Of a stretch of 64,000 bases of DNA, positions 6,266-24,274 are shown piece after piece. The position numbers and the translations under genes are program-made. Position 1 is the stretch's first letter. Each line of letters starts with the position of its first letter. Source of the DNA: Candidatus Tectimicrobiota bacterium (GTDB lineage Bacteria; JACPUC01); contig JACPUC010000015.1 of assembly GCA_016192455.1 (NCBI GenBank), positions 1 through 64,000 of the forward strand, written 5' to 3'. The notes beneath the pieces were generated by a model, which saw only the letters and a program-made list of their open reading frames with translations, was not told the origin of the DNA and ran no database searches.

Positions 6266-6271
6266 GGCCCT

Positions 6272-8167: not shown

Positions 8168-8258
8168 GGGCCGCTCGCCTTCAGCCTCTCACCCGCCCGC
8201 TGGAGCCTCGGCGGGCGGAGCGAGGCGGTTGCGTCGGGTGAACGCGCGCGCCTGCCCC

Positions 8259-9176: not shown

Positions 9177-9287
9177 CCCTGACCCTCGGGCGTAAGGCGA
9201 AATTTCCGCTCCCGGCGGCAGATCAGCGGCACGCCGGCCCTTCCTGGCGCCGCCGGCGGTTGGAGAACGACGTGCACGGACGCACCG

Positions 9288-10295
9288 CTACGGCGCCTCG
9301 GCCACGCTGCGCAGGAGCTCCCGAATGATGCCCTCGGCATGCACGCCCTCCGCTTCTCCCTCGAAGTTCAGGATGAGGCGGTGGCGCAGGCTCGGCAGGG
9401 CCACGGCACGCACATCCTCGAAGCCGACATGCAGCCGGCCCCGCAGCAGGGCGTGCATCTTCGCGCCGAGCACCAGGCTCTGGGCGCCGCGCGGGCTCGA
9501 ACCGTAGCGCACGTAGCGCCGCGTCAACTCACTGCCGGACTCGTGCTCCGGTTGCGTGGCGAGGATGAGGCGGATGGCGTAGTCGCGCACCGGCGTCGCC
9601 AGCGGGATGGAGCGTACCACCTGGCGCAGGCCCAGAATCTCTTCGGCGCTCAGGACAGAGCGCACGCGGTGGTTCTCCGCGCGCGTCGTGCGGTCGATGA
9701 TCTGGCGCAGCTCGTAGAACGAGGGCTGCTTCACGTCAAGCTTCATGAAGAAGCGGTCGATCTGGGCTTCCGGCAGGGGGTAGGTCCCCTCCATCTCGAT
9801 GGGGTTCTGAGTGGCGAGGACGATGAAGGGCTCCTGCAGCCGATGTTCGACGCCGCCGATCGTCACGCTGCGCTCCTGCATGGCCTCGAGCAGCGCCGAT
9901 TGCGTCTTCGGCGTGGCGCGGTTGATCTCATCGGCCAGCACGATGTGCGCGAAGATCGGCCCGCGCTGGAACTCGAAGTACTTCCGGTTCTGCTCATCCT
10001 GGAGCACCATGGTTGTTCCCAGGATGTCCGCCGGCATGAGGTCCGGGGTGAACTGGATGCGCGAGAAGGTCAGGTCGAGGGCTTCGCCGAGGCTCTTGAC
10101 GAGGAGCGTCTTGCCGAGGCCCGGGGCGCCTTCGAGGAGGGCGTGCCCGCCGCAGAGCAGGCAGGTGATCACCCCCTCGATCAGATCCTCGTGGCCGACG
10201 ATGACCTTGCCGATCTCCTCGCGCACGCGGCGCAAGTTGGCGTGGATCGCCGCCAGCCCTTCCTCGCTCATCATGCCGGGGGCGGTCTCGGTCAT
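9288..10295 (-). CDS. moxR: MoxR-family AAA+ ATPase
   Basis: Walker A 'GAPGLGKT', 'RIQFTPDLMPADI', 'LADEINRATPKTQSALLEAMQE', 'ATQNPIEMEGTYPLPEAQIDRF'. Confidence 0.96.
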   Translation of the reverse strand: MTETAPGMMSEEGLAAIHANLRRVREEIGKVIVGHEDLIEGVITCLLCGGHALLEGAPGLGKTLLVKSLGEALDLTFSRIQFTPDLMPADILGTTMVLQDEQNRKYFEFQRGPIFAHIVLADEINRATPKTQSALLEAMQERSVTIGGVEHRLQEPFIVLATQNPIEMEGTYPLPEAQIDRFFMKLDVKQPSFYELRQIIDRTTRAENHRVRSVLSAEEILGLRQVVRSIPLATPVRDYAIRLILATQPEHESGSELTRRYVRYGSSPRGAQSLVLGAKMHALLRGRLHVGFEDVRAVALPSLRHRLILNFEGEAEGVHAEGIIRELLRSVAEAP

Positions 10296-11797: not shown

Positions 11798-12563
11798 GGG
11801 CGGCAGCCTTGCGCTTCACGCGCCGGAACAGGAGCGCCAGCACTCCGACCGCGGCGCTCCCGGCGCCGAGATGGCCCAGCGCCGCCAGCACGGGCGCCGT
11901 GAGCCGCAGGGCGCCGACCTGGAGCGCTGGCGACGCGGCTTCGGGTTGGCTCAAGCTGATGAGGGCGCTGATGACATTGAACCGCGGCGCGAGGAAGGCG
12001 GTGCCGAAGGCGAGCAGGAGATACGTGGCCATGCCGGCGCGCCCTAACCAATCCTCGCGCCGCTCGAGCAGCACGGCGAGGAGCAGCCCGAGCAGACGGT
12101 ACGCGGTGAGACTGACGAGGAGCAGCCCGAGGGTGGCCCCAAGCTGCTTCCAGGCGAATCCGAGCGCCAGGTGGTTGAGCGTCAAGAGAGGGAGGCTGAG
12201 CAGCAGGAACCACGAGACGCTGAGGAAGTGCAGGAGGCACTTCCCGCCGAGAAGCTGCCGGGGCGAGAGTGGCGTATAGCGCAGCCACTCGGCGGGCGCA
12301 TGCGAATCACGGTCGTAGGCATCGCGCGGCAGCGCCGCAAACCCCAGGTAAGCTGCTACCACGAACACCGCAATGCCGAGCACATCATACGGGAACGGCA
12401 GGGCATTCGTCTGCAAGTAATCATAATAGTAACGTTTTGGCCAAGCGAAGAAAAGCACCACGCTCATGATGAGGACGTAGTGCAGGAAGAGGAGGTGCTG
12501 CTCGCGGCGCCCGAAGGCGCGCCGCAGCTCCTCCTCAAGCAGGGGATTTCCCGCACTGCTCAT
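11790..12563 (-). CDS. Polytopic membrane protein (ABC-2 permease-like)
   Basis: 'NPLLEEELRR' start, about 6 TM segments, 'LRYTPLSPRQLLGGK' motif typical of ABC-2-type permeases. Confidence 0.65.
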   Translation of the reverse strand: MSSAGNPLLEEELRRAFGRREQHLLFLHYVLIMSVVLFFAWPKRYYYDYLQTNALPFPYDVLGIAVFVVAAYLGFAALPRDAYDRDSHAPAEWLRYTPLSPRQLLGGKCLLHFLSVSWFLLLSLPLLTLNHLALGFAWKQLGATLGLLLVSLTAYRLLGLLLAVLLERREDWLGRAGMATYLLLAFGTAFLAPRFNVISALISLSQPEAASPALQVGALRLTAPVLAALGHLGAGSAAVGVLALLFRRVKRKAAAHG

Positions 12564-12754
12564 GGTTAGGCTCCCCCGTGCATTCGCCCCGCCGCGGCTG
12601 GCGGAGGTGGGTGCTCCTCGCCTCGCCGGTCTGTTCTACGAGGAACGGGAGCCGTCCCGTAGTCGGCGTCACCAGGGGCGGGAACGTCATGCGGCTCCCT
12701 CGCGGGGACCGGTGCGGCCGGTGCGGGCCGCTCTGCGCCGTGGCGACGGCTCAT

Positions 12755-14995
12755 CTAGAAGCCCTCCATGGCTGGCAGGGTGCGCTGGAAGCCGCGCATG
12801 GGGACGCGGGCGATGAGCAGCGTGGCACGTCGCACGAGGGCCCCCTCATGGATGAGCTCGAACGAGGGCGGTTGCGGAGGCAGCCAGCCGAGCAGAAGAA
12901 GCTCGTTCTCTTGCTCGCTCTTGCGCAAGCGCGACAGAGGGAAGAGGACCTCCATGAGCGAGCGTTTGATCAGTTCCTCCTCGGAGGGGGAGGCGAGCTC
13001 ATCGCGGCGGAAGAAGAGGGCATCCCAAAGACGTTGCAAGGCCTCATCGGGCACCTCCTCCTGGAACAGCGGCAGGCTGCGCGCCGCCTCCTCGCCGGGC
13101 TCGAGCGTCGGCAGGGAGAGGAGACCTCCCATGGCGATGGCGAAGGGTGACCGCAGCGCCATGCCGAGGCTGTTGCGCACCTGGAGGCGGAGGAGCGGGC
13201 CCTCCACCCAGGCGTCGACCTCCAGGCGCGCCGGCACCTGCGTGGCGATCGTGAAAGAGCGTTGCGACCAGCGCGCGGCGGGGATGGAGAGCAGGCGGGC
13301 TCCCTCCTCGCCGAGGTAGTGGACGTCCAGGAACGCCTGCCGCTTCGCGGGCGGCGCAAGCTGACGCAGGGCGGCGTTGGCAGCGGTGCTGCGAATCTGG
13401 ATCGTGGTGCGGCGGGTGGCGAAGAGGCCCCAGTGTCCCTCCAGCAGCGCCAGGGGCTGGCGCGGCGCGACCTCCAGGGTGCGCACGTCGAAGGCCAGCA
13501 CTTGGTCCCGCTGCAACGGATTCCCCAGCAGGAGGAGCGCCACGAAGGTGAATCCCACCGGGGCTGCCGCCGCCAGCCAGAACGCCGCGCGGCGCGGCTG
13601 GCGCGGCCAGGCGCGCGGGCCGAGGCGGCGGGCCAGGAGGCTCAGGAGCGCGGTCGCCGCTCCGCCGGAGTCCGGCCCCGCCGGACGAATGGGCCTCCAG
13701 ACCACGGTAGGCGGCGGATTCCTGAAAGTTCCGCGCTGCCGAGCTGGCAGGTACGCCTCGGAGCGGTGGAGGAACCAGTAGATTCCCGTCAGGAGGCCGA
13801 GGTACGGCAGCACCACGGCAAGGATCAGGAGATGCAGCCAGAGGATGGAAGCGCTGGTCCGGAGGGGGAGCGCGAAGAGGCGTTCGAAGAGGGCGAACGT
13901 TTCAGGACGCTGCTGGGCGGCTCTGGCGGCTGGAAGCATCAGGCGCCAGAGGGCGCCGCGGCCTGCCCAGCCGGTCATCGGGTACTGCGCCAGGTTCAGG
14001 GCGAAGAAGAAGATGCGGCCGCGCAGGTAGGGGTGACGCACGAGGATTGGCAGAGACCGGTGCGCCACGAGCACCTCGGCGGGGGAGACAATCGAGCGCA
14101 GCTTCGCCCGGGCGACGAGGAAGGGTTGCGCTGCCACGAGCGGCTGGCCGAAATACCGGGCCAGCTCCGGCAGGGCCTCCAGTTGGGTGACCCCGAGCCC
14201 TTCCACCGGCAGCCAGCGCGCCGCGCTGGGAAGCTCCGGCGGCGCCCCCACCTCGCCGGCGATCACCAGGGAGCCACCCTGCGCCACCCAGCGTTCCAGC
14301 GCCTCGAGCTGCGCCCTCCCCAGCCGCTGGAGGGGAAGCTGCTGCACGAGCACCACGGCCACCCCGTCAAAGGCGTACCAGTCGGTGGGGAGTCGATCGA
14401 GGTGGGGATAGGTGACGAGGTAGCGCGCCGTGGTGGTTTGGGCGAGGAAATCGGCGCTCACCGCGTCGCTAAGGACGACGATGAGATCACTGGTGGTGAA
14501 ATGGTTGCGCAGGTCGATGGCCTGCTCGGCGACGGCGCCGAACTCATCGCGCAAGATGACGCGCAGCGGTTCCGAAAAGCTATCGAGGTAGACGGTGAAG
14601 GCGAAGCGCTTCCGCGATCCCGAGGGGAGCAGCACCCGGCGCACGTAGCGCGCCTGAAACGCCGTGCCGCGGAAGCGGGAGCCCTCGTGGACGAGGAGTT
14701 CCAGGCTGCCCCGCAGGGACGGCCCTGAGTTCTCCACGAGGACGGACACCGGAACCCAGGAATCCAGCTTGAAGCGTTCCTGAAACCCCAGGTGAACACT
14801 GAGGCGGGTTGGAGCGGCGGCCCAGCCGAGGCCCGGCAGGAGCAGGCTGGCGATGGCGCTCAGGAGGAGCGTTCGCAGCCGGCTGCGGCGCCGCTGCGGC
14901 CGGCGGGTCGGCGGCGAGACCTGGCATGGCGCCGCGGCCCGGAGCGCGCAAGAAAGGCTCGGGGCCGCGCCTGGCTGCGGCATCAGGTTCCACAT
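12755..14995 (-). CDS. Large exported/membrane protein with GATase-like domain (first gene of MoxR operon); start uncertain
   Basis: Signal-like 'RLRTLLLSAIASLLLPGLGWAA', 'WVPVSVLVEN.G', 'LPTDWYAFDGV', 'ALERWVAQGGSLVIAG', two TM segments. Longest ORF starts at 15094. Confidence 0.7.
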   Translation of the reverse strand: MWNLMPQPGAAPSLSCALRAAAPCQVSPPTRRPQRRRSRLRTLLLSAIASLLLPGLGWAAAPTRLSVHLGFQERFKLDSWVPVSVLVENSGPSLRGSLELLVHEGSRFRGTAFQARYVRRVLLPSGSRKRFAFTVYLDSFSEPLRVILRDEFGAVAEQAIDLRNHFTTSDLIVVLSDAVSADFLAQTTTARYLVTYPHLDRLPTDWYAFDGVAVVLVQQLPLQRLGRAQLEALERWVAQGGSLVIAGEVGAPPELPSAARWLPVEGLGVTQLEALPELARYFGQPLVAAQPFLVARAKLRSIVSPAEVLVAHRSLPILVRHPYLRGRIFFFALNLAQYPMTGWAGRGALWRLMLPAARAAQQRPETFALFERLFALPLRTSASILWLHLLILAVVLPYLGLLTGIYWFLHRSEAYLPARQRGTFRNPPPTVVWRPIRPAGPDSGGAATALLSLLARRLGPRAWPRQPRRAAFWLAAAAPVGFTFVALLLLGNPLQRDQVLAFDVRTLEVAPRQPLALLEGHWGLFATRRTTIQIRSTAANAALRQLAPPAKRQAFLDVHYLGEEGARLLSIPAARWSQRSFTIATQVPARLEVDAWVEGPLLRLQVRNSLGMALRSPFAIAMGGLLSLPTLEPGEEAARSLPLFQEEVPDEALQRLWDALFFRRDELASPSEEELIKRSLMEVLFPLSRLRKSEQENELLLLGWLPPQPPSFELIHEGALVRRATLLIARVPMRGFQRTLPAMEGF

Positions 14996-15315
14996 GGGGC
15001 GGCGCGGGGAAATCGAGGGCGGTGAGGTGCGTGCCGAGCTGGTGTTGGCAGGGTGAGGGAGCGAACGGGGGAGGCGAAGGGGAGCACGCCGCATCCTCTC
15101 CGGGTTGCACCTCTAGGCTGTGCGACCCATATTGGTGCGCGAGCTGACGTGCCGCGCCGCCGCTTGCCGGCGCGGTCAGTTCCGGCGCCGCCTCGCGCTT
15201 CCTCTCCTGAGCGAGTTCTACCGCAGTCCGTCAGCCGCGTAAACAGGAAAAGAGCTGCGGGTCCATCTCCGAGGGGCGCCAAGTCGTTTTCCCCTGTGCG
15301 GAGGTGCGAGGTGTG

Positions 15316-15506: not shown

Positions 15507-18191
15507 GTGGGACGAGATTCCCAAGCCAGCGCGCCGAAAGGAATTCGCGCCGCTCTTGCCGGCAAGACGCTGCTCGTCTCCGGCGCCACCGGTTTTCTCG
15601 GCAAGGCCCTGATCGAGAAGCTCCTCTTCGAAATACCCGCCATCAAGCGCATCTATCTCCTCATCCGGCCCCGAGGAGGCGACGTTCCAGCCCAGGCACG
15701 GCTCAAGGCGGACATCTTCTCGAGCCCCCTCTTCCAACGCCTGCGGACGCGGGAAGAGGGGCGGGAAGGGTTCGAGGCTTTCCTGGGCGGAAAGGTTGTC
15801 GCCGTTGAAGGGGACCTCATGCAGGTGGGCCTCGGCTTGGCGGACGAGGACCTGCGGCGGCTCGCCAAGGAGATCGACCTCATCATCAACAGCGCCGCCA
15901 CCGTGCAGTTCGATGAACGCCTTGATCTGGCGCTGAACTTGAACACCCTGGGACCGCAGCGCTTGCTGGCGTTGGCCAAGAGCTGCCTGCGGCGTCCCCT
16001 CCTGGTGCAGGTCTCCACCTGCTACGTCGGGGGGAAGCTCGCCGGTCCCATCCCGGAGCAGGTGCTCGAGCAGGAGCAGACGATCAGCCACCTGCGGGGT
16101 GATGCCAACCTGCCGCCATTCAACGTCGATGAAGAGATCCGCCACCTCTTCCGGACCATTCGGCAGATCATCCAGGAGAGCCATCATCCGGAACGTCGAG
16201 TGGAGATCGTGGCCCTTGCCCGTGAGCAGCTCCTCAACGGGCAGGCGGCAAGCAAGCGGCAGGGCTCCCGGGCGGCGAATGGCGGGCAGCGGCTGGCCGA
16301 AGTCTCCTTCGAGGCGGCGCGCGGCCAGTGGATCGCCAGGCGCCTCGTGAGCGAGGGGATGAGCCGCGCCCAGCGCTATGGCTGGAACGACACCTACACC
16401 TTCACCAAGGCGCTGGGGGAGAAGCTCCTCGTCCGCGACCACGGCGCCGTGCCGCTCATCATCCTGCGGCCCTCCATCATCGAGAGCAGCCTGCGCGAGC
16501 CGGAGGCGGGGTGGATCGAAGGCTACCGCATGGCCGACCCGATGATCGCCGCGTATGGCCTCGGCAAGCTGCGCAAGTTCTCCAGCCGCCGCGAGGTGGT
16601 GCTCGACGTCATCCCCCTCGATGTTGTGGTGAACACGCTCATCGCCGCCATGGCTCACCCGCCGGCGGCGGGGCACGTCGTCTATCAGACGGCGTCCGGC
16701 AGCCGCGTCCCCCTCACCATTGGGAGGCTGGCCGACTACATCTTCGAGTACTTCCGCGACCATCCGATGCGAACTCGCAAGGGCCAGCCCATCCGCGTCA
16801 AACCCTGGCGATTGCAGCCGCAGGAGGAGTTTCAGCGCCACCTCTACTGGCGCTCCTTCCTGCCGGTGAAGATGCTGCACCGCGTGCTGCGCTCGCTGGC
16901 CTGGCTCCCCTTCGCGCCGTCGCTCCTCGAGAAGGTGGGGAAGCTACGCAACGCCCTCGAGCAGCTCCGGCACCTCAGCACGATTTACGCTCCCTACACC
17001 AACCATAGCCCGCTCTTCGAGACGAAAGCCACGGAGAAGCTCTTCGATCTGCTGCGCGAGGAAGACCGGCAGCGCTTCAACTTCAGCCTTGCTGATCTCG
17101 ACTGGGAGCACTACGTCAAGGAGGTGCACATTCCCGGCCTCATCCGCAACGTCATCCAGGCCGAGCGCCCGCCCCGGCTGACGGCGATCTCCCCGGTTCC
17201 CCTGGCTGACGAGGCGACGCTGGCGGCCTGGGGCGAAGCGCCGATCGCGGAGATGATCGCCCCCGCGAGCATGGTCGATCCCCTCACCGAGGCGGAGTTC
17301 ACCCTCTGGAATGAGACGGATGCGCTCGAGGAGGACGTTGCCGGCATTGGCATGGGCGAGGCTCGCGACCAAGGGGCCGCGGCGGCAACAACCCTTGAGG
17401 AGCTGGAGCAGGCCGAGGCAAGCAGGGCCGCGCCGCTGCCGACCGAGCGGCCGTTGCGCCTGCGGCGCCGCCTGGCGATCCCCGCCGTGCCCGCCATCCT
17501 CGCGCCGCAGCGTCGCTCTCCCCTCACCTTCATGCAGGTGGCCTTCCGCGACTTCATCGGGGTGCTGGGGCTAATTGCCAACCGCGTCTATTTCCGCTCG
17601 GAAGTGACGGGGCTCGATCACCTGCCCACGGATGGCGCCTTCATCGTCGCCTCCAACCACTGCAGCCATCTCGACACCACGGCTGTCATCCTGTCGATGG
17701 GACCCTACGCTCTGCGGGCCTGCGTCGTGGGGGCGCGTGACTACTTCTTCAACACCCGTCTCAAGGCCTGGTTCTTCGGCAGTCTGTTGAAAGCCATCCC
17801 CTTCGATCGGCAGGGGAACTTCATCGCCGGCATCCGCCAGTGCCGCGAAGCGCTCATGAATCGCACCCCGGTGCTCATCTACCCGGAAGGGACCCGCTCC
17901 CTCACCGGCATGCTGCAGCCGTTCAAGCTCGGGGTGGGGGTGCTGGCCTACGAGCTCAAGGTTCCCGTTGTTCCCGCCTACGTCAGCGGCACCTACCAGG
18001 CGCTGCCGAAAGGGTCATGGTTCCCCCGTCCCTACAAGGTTCGGGTGCGCTTCGGTCCTCCCCTCACCCCCTCCGCCGCGACGGCCGAGGATGACCGGGA
18101 CGGCTCGCCCTACACGGCCTACGTGACCCTCGTGCGCCGGCTGCGCCAGGCCATTGAAGAGCTCCGCGATGCCAGCGCCACGCCGGCATGA
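15507..18191 (+). CDS. Fatty acyl-CoA reductase (NAD_binding_4 + Sterile domains) fused to a PlsC-type glycerolipid acyltransferase
   Basis: 'VSGATGFLGK', 'NSAATVQFDE', 'VSTCYV', YxxxK 'TYTFTKALGE', 'RPSIIES', 'DWEHYVKEVHIPGL'. C-terminal 'NHCSHLD' (HxxxxD) and 'YPEGTRS'. Confidence 0.92.
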   Translation: MGRDSQASAPKGIRAALAGKTLLVSGATGFLGKALIEKLLFEIPAIKRIYLLIRPRGGDVPAQARLKADIFSSPLFQRLRTREEGREGFEAFLGGKVVAVEGDLMQVGLGLADEDLRRLAKEIDLIINSAATVQFDERLDLALNLNTLGPQRLLALAKSCLRRPLLVQVSTCYVGGKLAGPIPEQVLEQEQTISHLRGDANLPPFNVDEEIRHLFRTIRQIIQESHHPERRVEIVALAREQLLNGQAASKRQGSRAANGGQRLAEVSFEAARGQWIARRLVSEGMSRAQRYGWNDTYTFTKALGEKLLVRDHGAVPLIILRPSIIESSLREPEAGWIEGYRMADPMIAAYGLGKLRKFSSRREVVLDVIPLDVVVNTLIAAMAHPPAAGHVVYQTASGSRVPLTIGRLADYIFEYFRDHPMRTRKGQPIRVKPWRLQPQEEFQRHLYWRSFLPVKMLHRVLRSLAWLPFAPSLLEKVGKLRNALEQLRHLSTIYAPYTNHSPLFETKATEKLFDLLREEDRQRFNFSLADLDWEHYVKEVHIPGLIRNVIQAERPPRLTAISPVPLADEATLAAWGEAPIAEMIAPASMVDPLTEAEFTLWNETDALEEDVAGIGMGEARDQGAAAATTLEELEQAEASRAAPLPTERPLRLRRRLAIPAVPAILAPQRRSPLTFMQVAFRDFIGVLGLIANRVYFRSEVTGLDHLPTDGAFIVASNHCSHLDTTAVILSMGPYALRACVVGARDYFFNTRLKAWFFGSLLKAIPFDRQGNFIAGIRQCREALMNRTPVLIYPEGTRSLTGMLQPFKLGVGVLAYELKVPVVPAYVSGTYQALPKGSWFPRPYKVRVRFGPPLTPSAATAEDDRDGSPYTAYVTLVRRLRQAIEELRDASATPA

Positions 18192-18234
18192 GGTCGTCCT
18201 GAACGCCACCTCGCGGCGATCAGCCTGCCTGCAG

Positions 18235-18900
18235 ATGGCCTTCTTCGATGTGGATGGCACCTGCGTCGATACCACCATCCTGCACTACTATGTCTGGTTC
18301 GTTCGCGATCGCGTTGCGCCGCCCTGGCGCTGGCTGCGGATCGGCAAGCTCCTCTCCCTCGTCCCGTACTACTGGGTTCTTGACCAGGTCTCCCGGACCG
18401 CCTTTAGCATCGCCTTCTACCGCGCCTATGCCGGTATCGCGGCGGCGGAGCTGGAGGAGTGGGGGCGAACCACGCTGCGCCAGCGACTCCTGCCGCATGT
18501 CTACCCGGGGGCGAGAGCTGAGATCAGCGCCCTGGGGAGAGATGGGGTGCCGATCACCTTCGTGACCGGCTCGTTGCCGGCGGTGGTGGAGCCGGTGCGG
18601 CAGCTTGCCGCGCAGGAGGGGTCGCCGGCGGAGGTGCTGGGGAGCGTGCTCGCGGTGCGGCGGGGCGTCTTCACGGGGGACCTGGAGGGGGCTCCCCTGG
18701 CGAGCGAGGCGAAGCGCCGGCGCCTCGAGTCCCTCGCCACGGAGCGTGGCATCAGCCTCGAGCAGTGCGCCGCCTATGGCGACTCCATGGCTGATCTGCC
18801 GATGCTCGAGGCGGTCGGTCAGCCGGTGGCCGCGAACCCCACCCCGTCCCTGCGTCGCATTGCCCGGCGGCGCGGCTGGACGATTTGCGATTGGGCCTAG
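18235..18900 (+). CDS. HAD-superfamily subfamily IB phosphatase (SerB-like)
   Basis: Motif I 'FFDVDGT', motif II 'VTGS', 'K' in 'EAKRR', motif IV 'YGDSMADLPML..VG.PVAANP'. The start could be a little further upstream (frame open from 18154). Confidence 0.9.
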   Translation: MAFFDVDGTCVDTTILHYYVWFVRDRVAPPWRWLRIGKLLSLVPYYWVLDQVSRTAFSIAFYRAYAGIAAAELEEWGRTTLRQRLLPHVYPGARAEISALGRDGVPITFVTGSLPAVVEPVRQLAAQEGSPAEVLGSVLAVRRGVFTGDLEGAPLASEAKRRRLESLATERGISLEQCAAYGDSMADLPMLEAVGQPVAANPTPSLRRIARRRGWTICDWA

Positions 18901-18937
18901 GTTGTGGTTGGGCGGAGCTTGCGGGACGGCCGGACCT

Positions 18938-20173
18938 ATGCTGGCGATCCAGTACCTGAAGAGCATCCCGCGCTTCCTCGCGGTGCGTGGGCTGGGGACG
19001 TTCTGGAAGGGGGCGGCGACGAGCCGATTCGGCTGCGCGCAGCTCCGCGAGATCGCCCCGCCCCCCTTGCCGAACGAGCGCTGGCTGCGCCTGCGCCCTA
19101 TCCTCGCCGGCATCTGCGGCTCGGACCTGGCGACGATCACGGCGAGGAACACCCCGTACTTCTCGCCCCTCCTCTCCTACCCGTTCACCCTCGGCCATGA
19201 GCTGGTAGGGCGCGTCGAGGAGGTGGGGGCGGCGGTCGAGGGGGTGGCGAGGGGCGACAAGGTCCTCGTCGAGCCGGCGTTAAGCTGCGCGGTGCGGGGC
19301 ATCGAGCCGCCCTGCCCGATGTGCCAGGCCGGCCATGCCGCCTGCTGCCTGAACATCATGCACGGCGCCATCTCCCCCGGCATCCAGACCGGCTACTGCC
19401 GCGATACCGGGGGCGGCTGGAGCGAGTCCCTGGTGGTGCACGAGCGGCAGGTGCTGCGGGCCCCCGAGGAGACGCCGGACGAGGCGCTCGTGCTGGTGGA
19501 GCCTTTGAGCTGCGCGGTGCACGCCGCCCTGAAGGTCGCTTGCCCGGCGGCCGGCACGGCCCTGGTGCTGGGGTGCGGCGCCATCGGCTTGCTCCTCACC
19601 TTTGCGCTGCGCACCCTTGGGAATCCCGGCCGCATCATCGCGGTCCACCGCTACCCCCACCAGGCGGCGTTCGCCAGGGTCTTCGGCGCCGATTGCCTCG
19701 TCCAGGACGGTCCCGGGGTGGAGGAGGAGATCGCCGCGCTGACGCGCGCCGAGCGCCGCAAGCCGGAGATCGGCGGCAGCGTCTTCCTGGGCGGGGTGGA
19801 CGTGACCTACGATTGCGTCGGCTCCTCCGGCAGCCTCGACCAGGCCCTGCGCTACACGCGCGCGCTCGGGGCGGTTGCCGTGGTGGGCATGCCGGGGGTG
19901 CCGCGCGGCCTTGACTGGACGGCCATCTGGTACAAGGAGCTGCGCGTCGTCGGCACCTATGCGTACGGCCTTGAGGAGTACGCGGGTGAGCGCCTGCGCA
20001 CCTTCGAGCTGGCGGCCCGCCTGGCGCGCCGGCACGCCGCCAAGCTGGCGCCGCTCGTCGGGGCGCGCTACCCCCTGCGGGAGTTCCCGGCGGCCATTGC
20101 CTCGGCGCGCTTCAGCGGGCGGTCCGGCGTGGTGAAGACGGTCTTCGAGGTGACGCCGGAGGGGCGGCTGTAG
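18938..20173 (+). CDS. Zinc-dependent medium-chain dehydrogenase/reductase
   Basis: 'GICGSDL', 'LGHELVG', Cys cluster 'SCAVRGIEPPCPMCQAGHAACC', 'EPLSCAVH', Rossmann 'LGCGAIG'. ATG at 18938. Confidence 0.92.
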   Translation: MLAIQYLKSIPRFLAVRGLGTFWKGAATSRFGCAQLREIAPPPLPNERWLRLRPILAGICGSDLATITARNTPYFSPLLSYPFTLGHELVGRVEEVGAAVEGVARGDKVLVEPALSCAVRGIEPPCPMCQAGHAACCLNIMHGAISPGIQTGYCRDTGGGWSESLVVHERQVLRAPEETPDEALVLVEPLSCAVHAALKVACPAAGTALVLGCGAIGLLLTFALRTLGNPGRIIAVHRYPHQAAFARVFGADCLVQDGPGVEEEIAALTRAERRKPEIGGSVFLGGVDVTYDCVGSSGSLDQALRYTRALGAVAVVGMPGVPRGLDWTAIWYKELRVVGTYAYGLEEYAGERLRTFELAARLARRHAAKLAPLVGARYPLREFPAAIASARFSGRSGVVKTVFEVTPEGRL

Positions 20174-20308
20174 GACGTTCCAGCCATGGCAGGGCGCTGC
20201 GGGCGGCCCTGGCAGAGGCGCCGGGAAGCGTTCGGTCGAGGAGACGTGGGCTCGTCCGCAGCGCCCCCGAAGTGAGCAAGGGATCGGAGCGGGAATCGAG
20301 GATCAGGG

Positions 20309-21922
20309 ATGCACGATGCCGCGCAGCAACGCGACCCGGAACGCGATCGCAACGGTCTTGTCTGGTACGTCGAGAAACCGAACCAAAAGTTTCTCTTCGC
20401 CTGCGGAGAGCGCTACGTTTGGGAGACCCTGCCACCCGGCACGCGCATCGTCGAGGCGCCGCCGTCGGTGCCGGGGCTTGCCGACCCGGACGCGGCGATC
20501 GAGGCGGCGCTGGAGCACCCCCTCGGCTGCGATCCCCTCTCGGCCCAGTTGCGGCCGGGGATGAAGGTGACCATCGCCTTCGACGACCTGTCGCTGCCGC
20601 TGCCGCCCATGCAGCGGCCCGACGTGCGCCAGCGCGTCATCGAGATCGTGCTGCGCAAGCTGGCCGCGGCCGGTATTGACGATATCCACCTCATCGTCGC
20701 CACCAGCCTTCACCGGCGCATGACCAAGGCCGAGCTGCAACACGCCCTGGGCCGCCGCATCGTGCGGGCGTTCTACCCGCATCGCCTTTACAACCACGAT
20801 GCGGAGAATCCGGACGGCATCGTCGCCCTCGGCAAGACCGAGCAGGGCGAGGTGGTGGAGTTGAACCGGCGGGCCGTCGAGTCGGACCTCCTGATCTACG
20901 TGAACATCAACCTCGTCTCCATGGACGGCGGCAACAAGTCGGTGCCCGTGGGCTTGGGAACCTACGCCAGCCTGCGCTTCCACCACAACGTGCACAGCCT
21001 CATGCAGTCGCGCTCTTTCATGGACCCGCGGCACTCCTACCTGCACCACTCCTGCGACCGCATGGGACGCGTGGTCGCCGAGCACGTCAAGATCTTCACC
21101 ATCGAAACGACCTTGAACGGCGACATGTTCCCCTGGTTCATGACCTTCCTCAACAAGACCGAGAAGCACTACACCGCCTTCGACCGCCTCTCCCTGCACG
21201 CCACCCGCGGCTTCCTCGACCACTCGCCCCTGGCGGTCAATCGCAGGCTCTTCCAGGCCATCAAGTCGCCCTACCAGCTCAGCGGCGTGCACGCCGGGGA
21301 GACGAACGCGGTGCACGCGAAGACAATGGAGCAGGTCTTCAAGCAGCACCTCGTGCGTGTCGAAGGCCAGGCGGACATCGTCGTCATGGGGTTGGCGCAC
21401 ATCTGTCCCTACAACGTCAACTCCATCATGAACCCCATCCTGGTCATGTGCCTGGGGCTGGGCTACATGTTCAACTTCTACCGCGGCCGGCCGCTGGGGC
21501 GGAAGGGTGGCGTGATGATCTTCCTGCATCCGGTGGAGTACAAGTTCAACGCCGTGCACCACCCCTCCTACATCGACTTCTTCGAGGAGGTGCTGACCGA
21601 GACGCAGGACTCCAGCGTCATCGAGGCGAAATACGAAGAGAGCTACGCGCGCAACCCCCGCTACCTCGAGGCGTATCGTTTCGGGCATGCCTACCACGGC
21701 GTGCACCCGTTCTACATGTGGTACTGGGGCACCCAGGGGCAGCGGCACTTCGCGCGCGTCATCTTCGTTAACCCCACCAGCCCACAGGCGGTGCGGCGCA
21801 TGGGGTTCGAGGCGGCGCCGTCGCTGCCGGCCGCCCTCGAGATGGCGCGCGACACGCTGGGGGCGAACGCCTCCATCACCTACCAGCGGGTGCCGCCGAT
21901 CTCGATGTGCGAGGTGGTCTGA
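20309..21922 (+). CDS. Lactate racemase (LarA/DUF2088)-fold protein
   Basis: 'ALEHPLG..PL', 'VTIAFDD', 'IVATSLHRRMT', 'NHDAE', 'ELNRRAVESDLLIYV', 'GGNKS', 'GGVMI'. Confidence 0.85.
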   Translation: MHDAAQQRDPERDRNGLVWYVEKPNQKFLFACGERYVWETLPPGTRIVEAPPSVPGLADPDAAIEAALEHPLGCDPLSAQLRPGMKVTIAFDDLSLPLPPMQRPDVRQRVIEIVLRKLAAAGIDDIHLIVATSLHRRMTKAELQHALGRRIVRAFYPHRLYNHDAENPDGIVALGKTEQGEVVELNRRAVESDLLIYVNINLVSMDGGNKSVPVGLGTYASLRFHHNVHSLMQSRSFMDPRHSYLHHSCDRMGRVVAEHVKIFTIETTLNGDMFPWFMTFLNKTEKHYTAFDRLSLHATRGFLDHSPLAVNRRLFQAIKSPYQLSGVHAGETNAVHAKTMEQVFKQHLVRVEGQADIVVMGLAHICPYNVNSIMNPILVMCLGLGYMFNFYRGRPLGRKGGVMIFLHPVEYKFNAVHHPSYIDFFEEVLTETQDSSVIEAKYEESYARNPRYLEAYRFGHAYHGVHPFYMWYWGTQGQRHFARVIFVNPTSPQAVRRMGFEAAPSLPAALEMARDTLGANASITYQRVPPISMCEVV

Positions 21923-21929
21923 GGAGCCG

Positions 21930-22913
21930 ATGAGGCCGCCGCTACCCGCGTTGAACCTGGCCGTCATCGTCAATCCCCGCTCCGGGGCGGGGAAGGGGCG
22001 GCGGCTTGCCGCGCGGCTGAGCGCCTGGTTGAAGCAGCAGGGGATTGTGGCGCCGTTCGCCCTCACCGAAGCGCCGGGCCACGGGCGCGCGCTGGCGGCG
22101 GGGTTCCTGAGAGAGGGCCACCGGCTCCTCATTGTCGTTGGCGGCGACGGCACGCTCCATGAGGTGGTGAATGCCATGGTGGCCGGGAGCGGTGGGCTTG
22201 CGAACGCCGCTCCGCCGCGCCAGCGACATGGCGTTGGCTCGATTGCGGTCAGCGCCGACGAACCCCCGCGCCCGCTGCTGGCGATCCTGCCGTGCGGCAA
22301 GGGGAACGACTTCGCCCGTGCCCTCGGCATCCCGACGCGCTGGGAAAGCTGGCTGGCGATGCTGCGGGCGGGATCGACGCGCGGCGTCGATCTGGGATGG
22401 GCCGGCGGGCGGGCCTTCACCACGGTTGCCGCGGTGGGGTTCGATGCCGAGGTGAGCGAGCGCGTCAACGCCGCCAGGCTGCGCGGCGCCGGCAGCATGC
22501 TCTACCTGCTCATGGCCCTGCGCCACCTGTTCCGCTACCAGCCGAAACTGCTGCGCCTGAGCGGCGATTTCGGCGTCTTCGAGGGTCGCGTCTTCCTCAC
22601 CGCCGTTGGCAACACGCCGCACTACGGCGGCGGCATGCGCATCACCCCCGGCGCCGACCCAGGGGACGGCGTCCTGGAGGTCTGCATCGTCGAGCCGATG
22701 CCGAAGCTGGCCGTGCTGCGCCTGCTGCCGAGCGTCTACACGGGCCGTCACGTCAGCCACCCGCGGGTGCGCTGCGAACGCACGCGCACCCTGCGCGTCG
22801 AAAGCCCTGAAGGGCCCCTCTGGCTGCACGCCGACGGCGAACCCCTCTGCCAAACCCCCGCCGCCATCGAGACCCTCCCGCGGGCCGTGCGGCTGCTCGT
22901 GCCGGCGCCGTAA
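21930..22913 (+). CDS. Diacylglycerol/lipid kinase family protein (YegS/DagK-like)
   Basis: 'VIVNPRSG', 'VGGDGTLHEVVN', 'LPCGKGNDFARALG', 'GFDAEV', 'YGGGM', 'HADGE'. Confidence 0.92.
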   Translation: MRPPLPALNLAVIVNPRSGAGKGRRLAARLSAWLKQQGIVAPFALTEAPGHGRALAAGFLREGHRLLIVVGGDGTLHEVVNAMVAGSGGLANAAPPRQRHGVGSIAVSADEPPRPLLAILPCGKGNDFARALGIPTRWESWLAMLRAGSTRGVDLGWAGGRAFTTVAAVGFDAEVSERVNAARLRGAGSMLYLLMALRHLFRYQPKLLRLSGDFGVFEGRVFLTAVGNTPHYGGGMRITPGADPGDGVLEVCIVEPMPKLAVLRLLPSVYTGRHVSHPRVRCERTRTLRVESPEGPLWLHADGEPLCQTPAAIETLPRAVRLLVPAP

Positions 22914-22982: not shown

Positions 22983-23174
22983 GAGATAATCTGGGATTAC
23001 TTGAACTGTGCGAATCGAAAAAGGATTAGGAGCGAGACAGGCATCTTCCTGGCCTGGCTGTCGATCCTCTTCATGGCGCACTTTCACTACCCGTTTCACC
23101 TACCGACGACGCAGGCGCTCTTCATTGTGTTGACGGCGATGCTTTTGGTTGACAAGCCCACCGCAAGTCTGTAG
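22983..23174 (+). pseudogene. 3' remnant of an O-antigen-ligase-like membrane protein
   Basis: Start-less frame reads EIIWDYLNCANRKRIRSETGIFLAWLSILFMAHFHYPFHLPTTQALFIVLTAMLLVDKPTASL* (TAG 23172-74). 'F.YPFHLP' between two TM helices resembles Wzy_C/O-antigen ligase C-termini. Confidence 0.45.
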
Positions 23175-23263
23175 ATTTGAGTCTACGGCGCAAACTGAGC
23201 GCCAAGCCCGGCGAAGGTTTCTCGCGCCACAACCGGGAGCTCGTAAGCGAGAGGGAGCCTACC

Positions 23264-24274
23264 ATGCCTCAGTTCATCTCCTTTACGCAGACCCAAGACA
23301 TGTTCGGACAATACGGCGGATCGCCGTACCCGCCCGACCGCGTGGTGGTTGACCAGCCGAACATCCGATCCGACGCGAGGCGTCTGGAAGCCGCGATCGC
23401 CAAACAGCGGACCGGCCTGGCGGCGGCAAGGGACAAACTCGCCAAGATGCGGGACCGGGTGAACGCGCTTTATGGCACGCCCGCGATGAATGATCCGGCG
23501 ATTCTGGCGATGTCGAATCATCACATCCCCGCCTTGGAGATCAGGGTCGCCGCCATCGAGACCGATCTTGGGTTGAAGGAACGCACGTTGGAGCGGACGA
23601 AGATTCTCTTGGCCCAGATGAGCGAGGATGAGAAGAATCTTCAGCAGGCCCAGGAGAACCCGGCGGTCGCGGCCGAGATGGGGAAGGTACTCACAGCGGC
23701 GGGGGTCAAGATCGGAGATATAATGGAAGAGACACAAGTGTTGCGAGAAAGATTTGATCAGATTCGGAGCGCAGTTGGTGATATTCTGATTGATTATTAC
23801 ATTTACGCTAGAATTGCTGAAATAGCAGATTCTAATCAGCTTCTTTGGCAGAGCAATGATTTCTGGGGGTTCTTGGACCGGCTCTATCGTAGTTCAATGG
23901 TTATTCGAATTCGGTCGCAGATTGACACCCATAAAGACGTGATTTCTTTTAGGAAGTTCCTTGAAGATCTAAAAACGTCTGATACTAAATTCAGAATTAG
24001 AAGAGAAGAAATAGATAGTGATATAATGCAATTAGATGAGAGTACCAAGCCAATCAAGGCTTACACAAATAAGTATGTTGCACACATTGATAAGAATCGG
24101 TCTGAGTTTAATACTAGGAGGGAACAGATTCGTTTAAGTATTGAAGTATTAGACAAGCTACTGTGTAAATACTGGAAGATCATGTTTGATGAGGATTTGC
24201 AAACCGTCCAATCGGAACTCGAATTCAAGAATTGGGAAGAAATTTTCTCCTTTCCATGGATAACTCCCAAATAA
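23264..24274 (+). CDS. Hypothetical protein: N-terminal coiled coil + C-terminal HEPN/AbiU2-like domain
   Basis: RBS GAGGGAG before ATG 23264. C-half has 'VIRIR...D...DVISFRKFL', 'YTNKYVAHID', 'WEEIFSFPW'. Strong GC drop after about 23720. Confidence 0.55.
   Translation: MPQFISFTQTQDMFGQYGGSPYPPDRVVVDQPNIRSDARRLEAAIAKQRTGLAAARDKLAKMRDRVNALYGTPAMNDPAILAMSNHHIPALEIRVAAIETDLGLKERTLERTKILLAQMSEDEKNLQQAQENPAVAAEMGKVLTAAGVKIGDIMEETQVLRERFDQIRSAVGDILIDYYIYARIAEIADSNQLLWQSNDFWGFLDRLYRSSMVIRIRSQIDTHKDVISFRKFLEDLKTSDTKFRIRREEIDSDIMQLDESTKPIKAYTNKYVAHIDKNRSEFNTRREQIRLSIEVLDKLLCKYWKIMFDEDLQTVQSELEFKNWEEIFSFPWITPK

What the first reader, a model, noticed from the sequence alone, without database searches (positions are those of the whole stretch)
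15507..22913. Five-gene operon that looks like a compact, uncharacterised ether-lipid (alkylglycerol) pathway
Seen: co-oriented FAR-acyltransferase fusion, HAD-IB phosphatase, Zn-dehydrogenase, LarA/DUF2088 protein and DAG-kinase-like protein; all except the LarA-fold protein keep their usual catalytic motifs. Established: eukaryotic ether-lipid synthesis uses FAR (fatty alcohol), DHAP acyltransferase, alkyl-DHAP synthase (AGPS), an alkyl-DHAP reductase and phosphatase/kinase steps. Myxobacterial ElbD combines FAR, acyl-CoA synthetase, ACP and acyltransferase, and from memory its cluster also holds HAD and DUF2088-type genes (to be verified). Inference: every step has a candidate here except AGPS, and the LarA-fold protein is the only unassigned gene. 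This would be an AGPS-independent route with a dedicated MDR reductase and lipid kinase.
Basis: partly seen in the sequence, partly recalled or inferred. Interest (0 to 1): 0.85.

Follow-up and report, generated by a model that had tools for sequence, protein, structure and literature searches.

The report
Ether-lipid operon with a nickel-pincer enzyme
This five-gene operon is a compact relative of the myxobacterial elb ether-lipid genes, and its most conserved member is a nickel-cofactor enzyme of unknown reaction that may be the missing catalyst that makes the ether bond.

Summary
The five co-oriented genes are real and sit at the stated coordinates. They are a FAR-acyltransferase fusion, a HAD-IB hydrolase, a Zn-MDR dehydrogenase, a LarA homologue (NCBIfam NF052592, LarAH14/15/16 family) and a YegS-type lipid kinase.

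The linkage is not chance. Of 50 LarAH loci from other species with at least 5 kb on both sides, 44 carry FAR, acyltransferase, HAD and MDR beside the LarAH. The kinase is accessory, present in 8 of 50.

In 6 of 80 loci, and in 7 of 7 strong hits from an even sample of 400 genomes, FAR and acyltransferase belong to one FAR-ACS-ACP-acyltransferase protein, the published ElbD architecture. One locus reads SDR-HAD-LarAH-ElbD-type-SDR, the published composition and order of M. xanthus elbABCDE, with the LarAH at the elbC position.

The LarAH keeps the cofactor-binding residues and one catalytic His. The second His is Asn and the Arg75 equivalent is Leu. larBCE genes adjoin the cassette in 7 of 80 loci, and LarC is present in 12 of 12 cassette genomes.

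No AGPS, CarF or PlsA/Ger-type gene was found in this 88%-complete genome.

Verdict: this is an elb-type ether-lipid operon. The idea that the LarAH forms the ether bond is plausible but untested.

The parts
15507..18191 (+). g1: fatty acyl-CoA/ACP reductase (NAD_binding_4 + Sterile domains, residues about 25-549) fused to a PlsC/GNPAT-type acyltransferase (residues about 698-826). It has no ACS or ACP domains.
   Evidence: Pfam and NCBIfam. Motifs GATGFLG, YTFTK, HX4D and EGTRS in the translation. Homologues in cassette loci are 28-45% identical over FAR and 32-50% over the acyltransferase. The same fused architecture occurs in 4 of 66 loci where both parts were seen.
18235..18900 (+). g2: HAD-IB family hydrolase, a putative phosphatase in the ElbB-type position.
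   Evidence: TIGR01490 at 111.1 bits against cut-off 98.3. DxDxT and GDxxxD motifs. Present beside the LarAH in 49 of 50 well-flanked loci.
18938..20173 (+). g3: Zn-dependent medium-chain dehydrogenase of the polyol/secondary-alcohol dehydrogenase type.
   Evidence: ADH_N plus ADH_zinc_N. No NCBIfam equivalog was reached. Best solved relatives are 4ej6, ketose reductase, xylitol, butanediol and galactitol-1-P 5-dehydrogenases, at E about 1e-22 to 1e-18. Present in 46 of 50 well-flanked loci.
20309..21922 (+). g4: LarA homologue of the LarAH14/15/16 family, a single-histidine nickel-pincer-nucleotide (NPN) type enzyme in the ElbC-equivalent position.
   Evidence: NF052592 at 809.8 bits against cut-off 740. 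It is the only Lar_N protein in the genome. Residue mapping to LarA and family conservation. AlphaFold model with pLDDT 93.3; best fold match 9q3k_A with TM 0.77/0.86.
21930..22913 (+). g5: YegS/DgkB-type soluble lipid kinase, an accessory member of the cassette.
   Evidence: DAGK_cat plus YegS_C; TIGR00147 at 146 bits against 118.65. GGDGT motif. Beside the LarAH in only 8 of 50 well-flanked loci, none of them in the FAR-HAD-MDR-LarAH-AT order typical of Actinomycetota, and in 4 of 7 strong loci of the even sample.

Best explanation
The operon is a compact variant of the elb-type bacterial pathway for 1-O-alkylglycerol ether lipids, one that needs no AGPS.

Proposed course (all steps are inferred, none is shown):
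1. The FAR half of g1 reduces a fatty acyl thioester to the fatty alcohol or aldehyde.
2. The acyltransferase half acylates DHAP or glycerol-3-phosphate at C1.
3. The LarA homologue g4, loaded with the nickel-pincer cofactor made by LarB, LarC and LarE encoded elsewhere in the genome, carries out the hydride-mediated step that installs the ether at glycerol C1. One route is transient oxidation of the C2 hydroxyl, which activates C1 for acyl-to-alkyl exchange and so mimics AGPS. The other is 'borrowed-hydrogen' reduction of a hemiacetal formed between fatty aldehyde and glycerol phosphate, giving 1-alkyl-DHAP.
4. The Zn-MDR g3 reduces the 2-keto intermediate to 1-alkyl-glycerol-3-phosphate. In the Myxococcus-type operon the ElbE/ElbA SDRs sit in the place of this enzyme.
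5. The HAD-IB hydrolase g2 and the lipid kinase g5 set the phosphorylation state of the alkyl(acyl)glycerol.

My odds: the cassette serves ether-lipid synthesis, about 0.6-0.65. The LarA homologue is itself the ether-forming catalyst, about 0.3.
For: (1) Conserved cassette. Among 80 loci from other species found with g4, 50 have at least 5 kb on both sides. Of these, HAD is present in 49, FAR in 48, acyltransferase in 48 and MDR in 46, and all four in 44. At least six different gene orders occur, across Actinomycetota, Dehalococcoidia, Planctomycetota, Acidobacteriota, Poribacteria, a cyanobacterium and a Binataceae-like MAG.

(2) Link to elb. FAR and acyltransferase are parts of one FAR/AMP-binding/PP-binding/acyltransferase protein in 6 of 66 scorable loci. 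The same holds in 7 of 7 strong LarAH hits among 400 evenly sampled genomes. L165 is NAD-epimerase / HAD / Lar_N / FAR-ACS-ACP-AT / NAD-epimerase. That is the composition and order published for M. xanthus elbABCDE. ElbD is required there for alkyl and vinyl ether lipids, while loss of the AGPS homologue has a minor effect (PMC9131029, passages).

(3) The NCBIfam cut-off for NF052592 separated cassette-linked LarAHs from unlinked ones. The five linked ones scored 809.8, 827, 837, 909 and 913 bits. The three without lipid neighbours scored 487, 517 and 544 bits. 16 of 17 loci with weaker homologues in one phylum, and 5 of 5 weaker ones in the even sample, had no FAR, acyltransferase or HAD.

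(4) The LarAH is built to use NPN. The Asp72, His108, Lys184 and His200 equivalents (D93, H135, K210, H226) are invariant in 81 of 81. larB, larC and larE lie next to the cassette in 7 of 80 loci. LarC is present in 12 of 12 cassette genomes including this one, against 212 of 401 in the sample. The own genome has LarB, LarC and LarE, and g4 is its only Lar_N protein.

(5) It is unlikely to be a 2-hydroxyacid racemase. His174 is Asn (N201 in 76 of 81). Arg75 is Leu or Ile in 81 of 81 and Leu or Val in the 6 cassette proteins, but Gln or Thr in 4 of the 5 non-cassette relatives compared there and Val in the fifth. The C-terminal domain aligns only with the single-His LarA-like structures. The Frankia LarAH14 protein showed no activity in all seven activity columns of the table (PMC7583248, table read). 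[quoted passage not shown]

(6) No AGPS-type protein was found in the genome. The only strong FAD-oxidase_C proteins are a GlcD/GlcE-like pair.
Against: - No product is known for this cassette. No lipid data exist for this organism.
- Most carriers among the 80 loci are Actinomycetota (Frankia, Micromonospora, Actinomadura, Acidimicrobiales). I know of no report of ether lipids in these (recalled), and my one search gave nothing relevant among the 15 of 528 papers listed.
- The 80 loci are the best of at least 598 and are heavy in related actinobacteria, so the counts are not independent.
- That M. xanthus ElbC itself is a LarA homologue was not tested on the M. xanthus sequence. It was tested only on an unnamed locus of identical composition.
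- In the review's account, ElbD and ElbE, not ElbC, were the genes shown to matter.
- Isolated ElbD gave no detectable acyltransferase activity or fatty alcohol, so even the elb chemistry is unsettled.
- The Myxococcus-type operon lacks the MDR, so the MDR step is not universal.
- A phosphatase and a kinase in one operon have no clean joint role in my scheme.
- LarC is common (53% of sampled genomes), so its presence in all carriers is only moderately informative.
- The genome is 88% complete, so absence of AGPS is not proven.
Confidence: 0.5

Rival explanations
1. The cassette does make ether lipids, but the LarA homologue is not the ether-forming enzyme. It would perform a hidden-redox isomerisation on the glycerol backbone or on an intermediate. 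Examples are setting or inverting the C2 configuration of alkyl- or acyl-glycerol phosphate, or a keto/hydroxy shift. The ether bond would be made by the FAR-acyltransferase/ElbD protein or by an unlinked enzyme.
For: All characterised LarA homologues are racemases or epimerases acting at a C-H(OH) centre (PMC7583248, PMC11770544, passages). Gatreddi et al. propose one-directional epimerisation for single-His enzymes (PMC12611868, section 2.5). The published genetics point to ElbD and ElbE. The MDR-LarAH pair also occurs without lipid genes in L168.
Against: The second base needed for inversion is replaced by Asn. No other cassette member has a fold known to make ether bonds. The LarAH is as tightly conserved in the cassette as FAR and the acyltransferase. 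The L168 LarAH falls below the family cut-off (517 bits) and has different pocket residues.
Confidence: 0.25
2. The cassette makes a fatty-alcohol- or aldehyde-derived lipid that is not a glycerol ether. Candidates are a wax-ester-like or acyl/alkyl-dihydroxyacetone lipid, a long-chain diol or hydroxy-ketone lipid, or a signalling lipid. The LarAH and MDR would tailor a polar, possibly phosphorylated, polyol head.
For: Cultured actinobacterial carriers are not known for ether lipids (recalled). The MDR resembles polyol and sugar-phosphate dehydrogenases. The nearest solved LarA-like enzymes sit in sugar-metabolism contexts and bind an unidentified ligand of about 316 Da (PMC12611868, sections 2.4 and 2.6). 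Homologues of elbD occur in Pontiella, where no ether lipids were detected (PMC11868695, passage).
Against: The direct architectural and syntenic continuity with elbABCDE, whose ElbD is genetically tied to ether lipids. The acyltransferase is of the glycerol-phosphate/DHAP (PlsC) type. A hydrophobic residue replaces the carboxylate/phosphate-binding Arg75 specifically in the cassette clade.
Confidence: 0.15
3. The five genes are neighbours by chance or share only regulation, with no common pathway.
For: Nothing beyond the lack of direct experimental data. No promoter or terminator signal delimits the operon.
Against: 44 of 50 well-flanked loci keep all four partners on the same strand in several phyla and gene orders. 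7 of 7 strong hits in an unbiased sample keep FAR-ACS-ACP-AT beside the LarAH. Gaps between genes here are 7-135 nt.
Confidence: 0.02

Closest known systems
Myxococcus xanthus elbABCDE ether-lipid biosynthesis operon (Lorenzen et al. 2014, as described in PMC9131029 and PMC13012113; the original paper is not held)
   Same: FAR and PlsC-type acyltransferase domains lie in one protein, and a HAD hydrolase is adjacent. A LarAH of the same NCBIfam family sits at the elbC position of an elbABCDE-type locus (L165, 827 bits). There is one NAD(P)-dependent dehydrogenase partner. The route is AGPS-independent.
   Different: The window's g1 lacks the ACS and ACP domains of ElbD. A Zn-MDR replaces the two SDR (NAD-epimerase family) genes elbA and elbE. 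A YegS-type lipid kinase is added. The equation of M. xanthus ElbC itself with the LarAH was not tested on that organism's sequence.
LarA superfamily, group LarAH14 (Frankia sp. enzyme, Desguin et al. 2020, PMC7583248), and the single-histidine LarA-like enzymes LarA_Sp and LarA_Bw (PDB 9q2u/9q3k and 9q3j; Gatreddi et al. 2025, PMC12611868)
   Same: LarA fold (TM 0.77/0.86 to 9q3k_A). The NPN-binding Lys, His and Asp and one catalytic His are kept. The second catalytic His is replaced by Asn. The shared C-domain motif includes the equivalents of LarA_Sp Tyr307 and His401 (Y368, H466). The substrate is unknown.
   Different: Only 20-23% identical to the solved enzymes. LarA_Sp His306 corresponds to Pro, and the Arg75/Lys76 position is Leu. 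The genomic context is lipid synthesis rather than sugar metabolism. Whether it forms the same octamer is unknown.
Eukaryotic/peroxisomal ether-lipid pathway (FAR1, GNPAT, AGPS, acyl/alkyl-DHAP reductase) and M. xanthus MXAN_1676-1675-1674
   Same: An alcohol-forming FAR type (NAD_binding_4 + Sterile), a GNPAT/AGPAT-like acyltransferase and a ketoreductase candidate. MXAN_1675 is described as the same FAR + acyltransferase two-domain fusion as g1.
   Different: No AGPS flavoenzyme is present in the operon or was found in the genome. The reductase candidate is an MDR, not an SDR. A nickel-pincer enzyme is present instead.
Anaerobic routes: PlsA/PlsR plasmalogen synthase and Ger (glycerol ester reductase)
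   Same: Both give bacterial glycerol ether or vinyl-ether lipids without AGPS.
   Different: The enzyme families are unrelated. The genome's HGD-D family proteins are separate BcrB/BcrC-like subunits with two activase subunits, in a benzoyl-CoA-reductase-like cluster, not beside this operon. That PlsA and Ger are long multidomain proteins is recalled, not tested.

Membership tests
elb-type ether-lipid gene cluster (M. xanthus elbABCDE) | Multidomain ElbD: FAR + acyl-CoA synthetase + ACP + AGPAT-like acyltransferase | tested here: not met
   g1 has the FAR and acyltransferase domains only. Full ElbD-type proteins occupy the same place in 6 of 66 scorable loci and in 7 of 7 strong loci of the even sample.
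elb-type ether-lipid gene cluster (M. xanthus elbABCDE) | Adjacent HAD-superfamily hydrolase (ElbB) | tested here: met
   g2 is HAD-IB. HAD lies beside the LarAH in 49 of 50 loci and in the elbB position in L165.
elb-type ether-lipid gene cluster (M. xanthus elbABCDE) | ElbC-type gene between the HAD gene and elbD | tested here: inconclusive
   In L165, L097, L127, L163, L166 and L167 a LarAH lies directly between HAD and the ElbD-type gene, and in L164 about 2.8 kb from it. The M. xanthus ElbC sequence itself could not be examined. The literature calls it 'unknown function'.
elb-type ether-lipid gene cluster (M. xanthus elbABCDE) | NAD-dependent epimerase/dehydratase (SDR) genes elbA and elbE | tested here: not met
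   No SDR is in the window operon. A Zn-MDR is present instead. SDRs flank the cassette in L165.
elb-type ether-lipid gene cluster (M. xanthus elbABCDE) | Required for alkyl ether lipid production | not testable with these tools
   Needs lipid analysis of a mutant or a heterologous host.
NCBIfam NF052592, LarAH14/15/16 family (LarA superfamily) | Whole-protein score over the curated cut-off (740 bits) | tested here: met
   809.8 bits over residues 18-536.
LarA superfamily, NPN-dependent enzymes | NPN-binding residues: Lys184 (covalent link), His200 (Ni ligand) and Asp72 | tested here: met
   K210, H226 and D93 by alignment to 6c1w. All are invariant in 81 of 81.
LarA superfamily, racemases/epimerases | Two catalytic histidines (His108 and His174) | tested here: not met
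   The His108 equivalent H135 is present. The His174 equivalent is N201 (Asn in 76 of 81, Thr in 5).
LarA superfamily, 2-hydroxyacid enzymes | Arg75 binding the cofactor phosphate and the substrate carboxylate | tested here: not met
   L96, which is Leu in 77 and Ile in 4 of 81. The C-terminal substrate domain does not align with canonical LarA or Mar2 by profile, so Lys298 could not be mapped.
LarA superfamily, NPN-dependent enzymes | NPN biosynthesis genes larB, larC and larE in the genome | tested here: met
   LarB on C4, LarE on C1, and LarC as an N-part on C7 and a C-part on C1, all over their cut-offs.
AGPS-dependent (eukaryote-type) ether-lipid pathway | Alkyl-DHAP synthase flavoenzyme | tested here: not met
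   The 3 FAD-oxidase_C hits in the genome are a GlcD/GlcE-like pair plus one 22-bit hit. The best one matches glycolate oxidase at 292 bits against AGPS at 117 bits. The assembly is 88% complete.
Alcohol-forming fatty acyl reductase (FAR) | NAD_binding_4 Rossmann domain with YxxxK, plus the C-terminal Sterile (FAR_C) domain | tested here: met
   209.1 and 45.9 bits, both over their cut-offs. YTFTK is in the translation. Alcohol versus aldehyde output is not testable here.
YegS/DgkB lipid kinases (TIGR00147) | DAGK catalytic domain with GGDGT, plus the YegS_C domain, over the cut-off | tested here: met
   146.2 bits against 118.65. The substrate is unknown.

The most novel reading that the evidence does not exclude
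The LarAH14-family protein (the ElbC equivalent) is a nickel-pincer-nucleotide enzyme that forms the glycerol ether bond of bacterial alkyl ether lipids. It would replace the flavoenzyme AGPS, and would do so through a transient, cofactor-held hydride taken from glycerol C2. One version oxidises C2 to activate C1 for acyl-to-alkyl exchange. The other returns the borrowed hydride to a hemiacetal-derived oxocarbenium formed with a fatty aldehyde. This would be the first non-racemase reaction of the LarA fold, the first lipid role for nickel, and the missing step of the Elb pathway. It would operate in Actinomycetota, Chloroflexota, Acidobacteriota, Planctomycetota, Poribacteria and Myxococcota.
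Probability: 0.3. Interest if true: 0.9.

Novelty: new variant of a known kind. Interest (0 to 1): 0.7.

Why it matters
Three points make this worth following up.

1. How aerobic bacteria make alkyl ether lipids without AGPS has been open since ElbD was found in 2014. The review read here states that the functions of ElbD and its partners remain unresolved.
2. The LarAH14 group is an orphan of the nickel-pincer enzyme superfamily. It was inactive in all seven activities tested.
3. Placing a LarAH14-family enzyme at the conserved heart of the elb-type cassette joins the two problems and makes both testable with a defined gene set, larBCE and nickel. The family is large: 6016 proteins at E <= 1e-30 in one search, and at least 598 hits among species genomes.

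It also bears on which bacteria may be sources of the non-isoprenoid glycerol ethers used as environmental biomarkers. The cassette lies in many soil Actinomycetota and in sponge-associated Poribacteria and Acidobacteriota. If g5 is an alkylglycerol kinase, it would give a sequence to an activity that I recall as an orphan enzyme (not checked in any call).

Tried and rejected
- Lorenzen et al. 2014 is not held, and supplements are closed. I could not see the gene-context Table S1 of Desguin et al. 2020. It may already list FAR or acyltransferase neighbours for group 14. The main text has no 'acyl' or 'lipid'.
- Paper searches that link LarA, DUF2088 or lactate racemase with ether lipids found no such paper. 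The 2026 sponge elb preprint has none of these words, nor 'racemase' or 'nickel'.
- A search for glycerol ethers in the carrier actinobacteria gave only unrelated ecology papers among the 15 of 528 listed. All 10 searches are used.
- Reaching the M. xanthus genome directly failed. The phylum around L097 turned out to be another lineage, where only 2 of 17 LarAH-positive genomes carry the cassette.
- Contexts of weaker LarAH homologues (TPR, GGDEF, SDR, FdhD neighbours) gave no chemical clue.
- The long-chain 1,2-diol lipid idea was dropped once the ElbD link appeared.
- CarF (PF10520) was not found, but the control rang in no genome, so this says little.
- HGD-D hits proved to be a benzoyl-CoA-reductase-like cluster, not PlsA/Ger-like.
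- The promoter and terminator scan was uninformative.
- 'Longer' homologues gave 9 apparent fusions: LarAH with acyltransferase, MDR or TetR, and one protein with FAR, HAD, MDR and LarAH domains. Each is a single sequence on a single contig. They may be gene-calling run-throughs, so I do not count them as Rosetta-stone evidence.
- The predicted structure could only be used for fold comparison. Pocket geometry could not be inspected.
- No complex prediction was run, since no binding claim is made.

Full report
**Observation**

The window holds five co-oriented, tightly spaced genes at 15507-22913 on the + strand. Pfam and NCBIfam give the following.
- g1 (15507-18191, 894 aa): NAD_binding_4 at 209 bits, Sterile at 45.9 bits and a PlsC-type Acyltransferase domain at 75.6 bits.
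- g2: HAD-IB, TIGR01490 at 111.1 bits against a cut-off of 98.3.
- g3: a Zn-MDR with ADH_N and ADH_zinc_N. It reaches no equivalog.
- g4 (20309-21922): Lar_N, and NF052592 'LarAH14/15/16 family' at 809.8 bits against a cut-off of 740.
- g5: DAGK_cat plus YegS_C, TIGR00147 at 146 bits against 118.65.

Homologue alignments place the real starts of g2, g3 and g5 at 18235, 18938 and 21930. This leaves intergenic gaps of 43, 37, 135 and 7 nt. The usual catalytic motifs of FAR, acyltransferase, HAD, MDR and kinase can be read in the translations. The flanking genes are unrelated: a minus-strand MoxR/DUF58/BatA/VWA operon upstream, and an AbiU2 HEPN gene and an ABC transporter downstream.

**Is the grouping more than chance?**

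The best 80 loci (52-62% identity by best segment) were kept. They are mostly Actinomycetota: Acidimicrobiales, Frankia, Micromonospora, Actinomadura and Solirubrobacterales. The set also includes Dehalococcoidia, Planctomycetota, Acidobacteriota, Poribacteria, Zixiibacteriota, Leptolyngbya JSC-1 and a MAG labelled delta proteobacterium.

I ran tblastn with the window's proteins at E <= 1e-10 and counted hits within 9 kb of the LarAH. Of the 50 loci with at least 5 kb on both sides:
- HAD is present in 49, FAR in 48, acyltransferase in 48, MDR in 46 and the kinase in 8.
- All four core partners are present in 44.
- 37 loci have the order FAR-HAD-MDR-LarAH-AT, and 3 have the window's order.

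The 30 shorter loci agree as far as they reach; 17 have all four partners. The loci are related species and are not independent. Retention through several gene orders and phyla still shows a functional unit. The kinase is accessory.

**Link to the elb ether-lipid genes**

Both FAR and acyltransferase were seen in 66 loci.
- They are separate genes in 56.
- They are fused as in the window in 4, all Dehalococcoidia MAGs.
- They are fused with an intervening AMP-binding and PP-binding segment in 6.

L097 shows this last form explicitly. It has a 1471-aa NAD_binding_4 / AMP-binding / PP-binding / Acyltransferase protein preceded by HAD and LarAH. That is the ElbD architecture described for M. xanthus (PMC9131029, passages read).

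An independent, even sample of 400 bacterial genomes (348 genera counted with the own genome) searched with a profile of 81 LarAHs gave 7 strong hits of at least 730 bits. All 7 have the ElbD-type protein within 10 kb, 6 have HAD, 2 have MDR and 4 have the kinase. The 5 weaker hits fetched had none of FAR, acyltransferase or HAD.

One strong locus, L165, comes from an unnamed 9.0-Mb genome. It reads NAD-epimerase / HAD / Lar_N (536 aa) / FAR-ACS-ACP-AT (1467 aa) / NAD-epimerase, co-oriented and abutting. This is the published composition and order of elbA-E, where elbC is called a protein of unknown function. However, the M. xanthus sequence itself was not available to me.

**The curated cut-off marks the cassette clade**

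Cassette-linked LarAHs pass NF052592: the window at 809.8, L165 at 827, L097 at 837, Micromonospora at 909 and Frankia at 913 bits. Homologues without lipid neighbours score 487, 517 and 544 bits. In the phylum around L097, 17 of 201 genomes had a LarAH match at E <= 1e-40. Of the 17 loci fetched, only one carried the cassette, in addition to L097 itself.

**What the LarA homologue is**

Alignment to L. plantarum LarA (6c1w) maps the residues as follows.

| LarA residue | Window residue |
|---|---|
| Asp72 | D93 |
| Arg75 | L96 |
| His108 | H135 |
| His174 | N201 |
| Lys184 | K210 |
| His200 | H226 |

Across 81 family members, D93, H135, K210, H225 and H226 are invariant. N201 is Asn in 76 and Thr in 5. 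N199 is invariant. Position 96 is Leu in 77 and Ile in 4. Of the five non-cassette relatives compared, four have Gln or Thr at position 96 and one has Val; none of the five keeps both Ser95 and Asn at 199/201.

A profile of the family aligns only its N-domain with canonical LarA and Mar2. The C-domain aligns only with the two recently solved single-histidine LarA-like enzymes. Those are also the best sequence hit (E 2e-33) and the best fold hit (9q3k_A, TM 0.77/0.86, for a model of pLDDT 93.3). The equivalents of LarA_Sp Tyr307 and His401 are conserved (Y368, H466), and His306 is Pro.

The literature read gives three points.
- The Frankia LarAH14 protein was inactive in all seven activity columns of the table (PMC7583248, table).
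- Groups 14 and 15 lack the His174 equivalent, and the substrate of the solved Asn-type enzymes is unknown (PMC12611868, sections 2.1 and 2.4-2.6).

**The cofactor travels with the cassette**

The own genome encodes LarB, LarE and a two-part LarC, all over their cut-offs, and g4 is its only Lar_N protein. larB, larC and larE lie directly beside the cassette in 7 of 80 loci. LarC is present in all 12 cassette genomes tested, including the own genome. One of them, G492, has a stop codon inside its LarC match. The base rate is 212 of 401 in the same sample, so this is only moderate support.

**Other ether routes in this genome**

The only strong FAD-oxidase_C proteins are an adjacent GlcD/GlcE-like pair. 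The better one matches glycolate oxidase at 292 bits against AGPS at 117 bits. CarF was not found, but the control was silent everywhere. The HGD-D family proteins belong to a benzoyl-CoA-reductase-like set of separate subunits with two activases. The assembly is 88% complete, so these are 'not found', not 'absent'.

**Most likely function**

What is shown:
- a conserved cassette of FAR, PlsC-type acyltransferase, HAD-IB, one NAD(P) dehydrogenase (MDR here, SDRs in the Myxococcus type) and an NPN-type LarAH;
- its continuity with elbABCDE.

What is established in the literature: ElbD is required for alkyl and vinyl ether lipids in M. xanthus, and the AGPS homologue contributes little.

What is inferred:
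1. FAR supplies the alcohol or aldehyde.
2. The acyltransferase makes 1-acyl-DHAP or 1-acyl-G3P.
3. The LarAH uses the pincer cofactor to hold a hydride from glycerol C2 while the C1 substituent is converted to an ether. This could be AGPS-like acyl-to-alkyl exchange on the transient ketone, or return of the hydride to a hemiacetal-derived cation.
4. The MDR reduces alkyl-DHAP.
5. HAD and the kinase adjust the phosphate.

A single acid/base histidine suffices for such a scheme, because no inversion is needed. The hydrophobic replacement of Arg75 fits a lipid rather than a carboxylate. I give about 0.6-0.65 to 'ether-lipid cassette' and about 0.3 to 'the LarAH makes the ether bond'.

**Against this reading**

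- No product is known for this cassette.
- The many cultured actinobacterial carriers are not known for ether lipids (recalled; one search was uninformative).
- ElbC was not among the genes reported to matter.
- elbD homologues occur in an organism where no ether lipids were detected (PMC11868695).
- The MDR is missing from the Myxococcus-type operon.
- A phosphatase and a kinase together remain unexplained.

**Novelty**

The pathway kind (elb) is known, and this is a new variant of it. What appears new is that a LarAH14-family nickel-pincer enzyme is a core member. Within the held library I found no paper joining LarA or DUF2088 with ether lipids. The unseen supplements of Desguin et al. 2020, and Lorenzen et al. 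2014, may bear on this.

Noticed in passing
window 23177-24274 (+): An AbiU2-type HEPN gene (PF18734, E 4.8e-8) lies directly downstream. Its GC3 is 0.59, against 0.83-0.97 for neighbouring genes, and a sigma-70-like promoter match sits at 23149-23177. It looks like a recently acquired defence gene. The region 22-30 kb has lower GC (0.60-0.66) than the rest of the window.
   Followed up: partly
window 3359-15094 (-): A minus-strand operon of MoxR AAA ATPase, DUF58, BatA and VWA proteins (aerotolerance-type 'Bat' set). It also holds two ORFs without Pfam hits (10295-11797, 11793-12563) and a 779-aa DUF4350-like protein (12755-15094). It is oriented divergently from the lipid operon.
   Followed up: partly
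G000:C7:298945-300033 (-) and G000:C1:39000-40705 (+): LarC is in two parts in this genome. The N-terminal part (profile positions 1-236) is alone on contig 7. The C-terminal part (237-374) lies next to larE on contig 1, overlapping its end. larB is on a third contig (C4:55308-56291).
   Followed up: no
L168 (G321:C3:20000-39999), 9602-12408: An MDR 52% identical to g3 sits beside a LarAH only 37% identical to g4 (517 bits, below the family cut-off), with no FAR, acyltransferase or HAD within 10 kb. The MDR-LarAH pair may be an older two-enzyme module reused outside lipid synthesis.
   Followed up: partly
L062, L067, L074, L081 at about 3500-6350; also L030, L066, L091: In Micromonospora, Actinomadura, Thermomonospora and some uncultured Actinomycetota, larC, larB and larE lie immediately beside the FAR-HAD-MDR-LarAH-AT cassette, giving a self-contained locus of about 10 kb.
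   Followed up: yes
G000:C31:229806-233995 (L173 3807-7995): A four-gene cluster resembles class I benzoyl-CoA reductase or 2-hydroxyacyl-CoA dehydratase (BcrC-, BcrB-like subunits and two activase subunits), all below the equivalog cut-offs. A second BcrB-like gene lies beside a 3-hydroxybutyryl-CoA dehydrogenase on C22. This suggests an anaerobic or facultative lifestyle.
   Followed up: partly
proteins P0121-P0129: Nine long proteins join a LarAH of this family to an acyltransferase, an MDR, a TetR domain or (P0129, 1460 aa) FAR, HAD and MDR domains. Each is a single sequence on one contig, so real fusions and gene-calling run-throughs cannot be told apart.
   Followed up: no
whole genome G000: the genome search found no relative closer than 'same domain' among 400 genomes, so the window's organism stands in an isolated lineage of the held collection. 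Its FAR-acyltransferase fusion type is shared only with four Dehalococcoidia MAGs among the 80 loci. Its closest LarAH in the even sample (68% identity, L162) sits in an ElbD-type cassette with the same HAD-MDR-LarAH-kinase order.
   Followed up: partly
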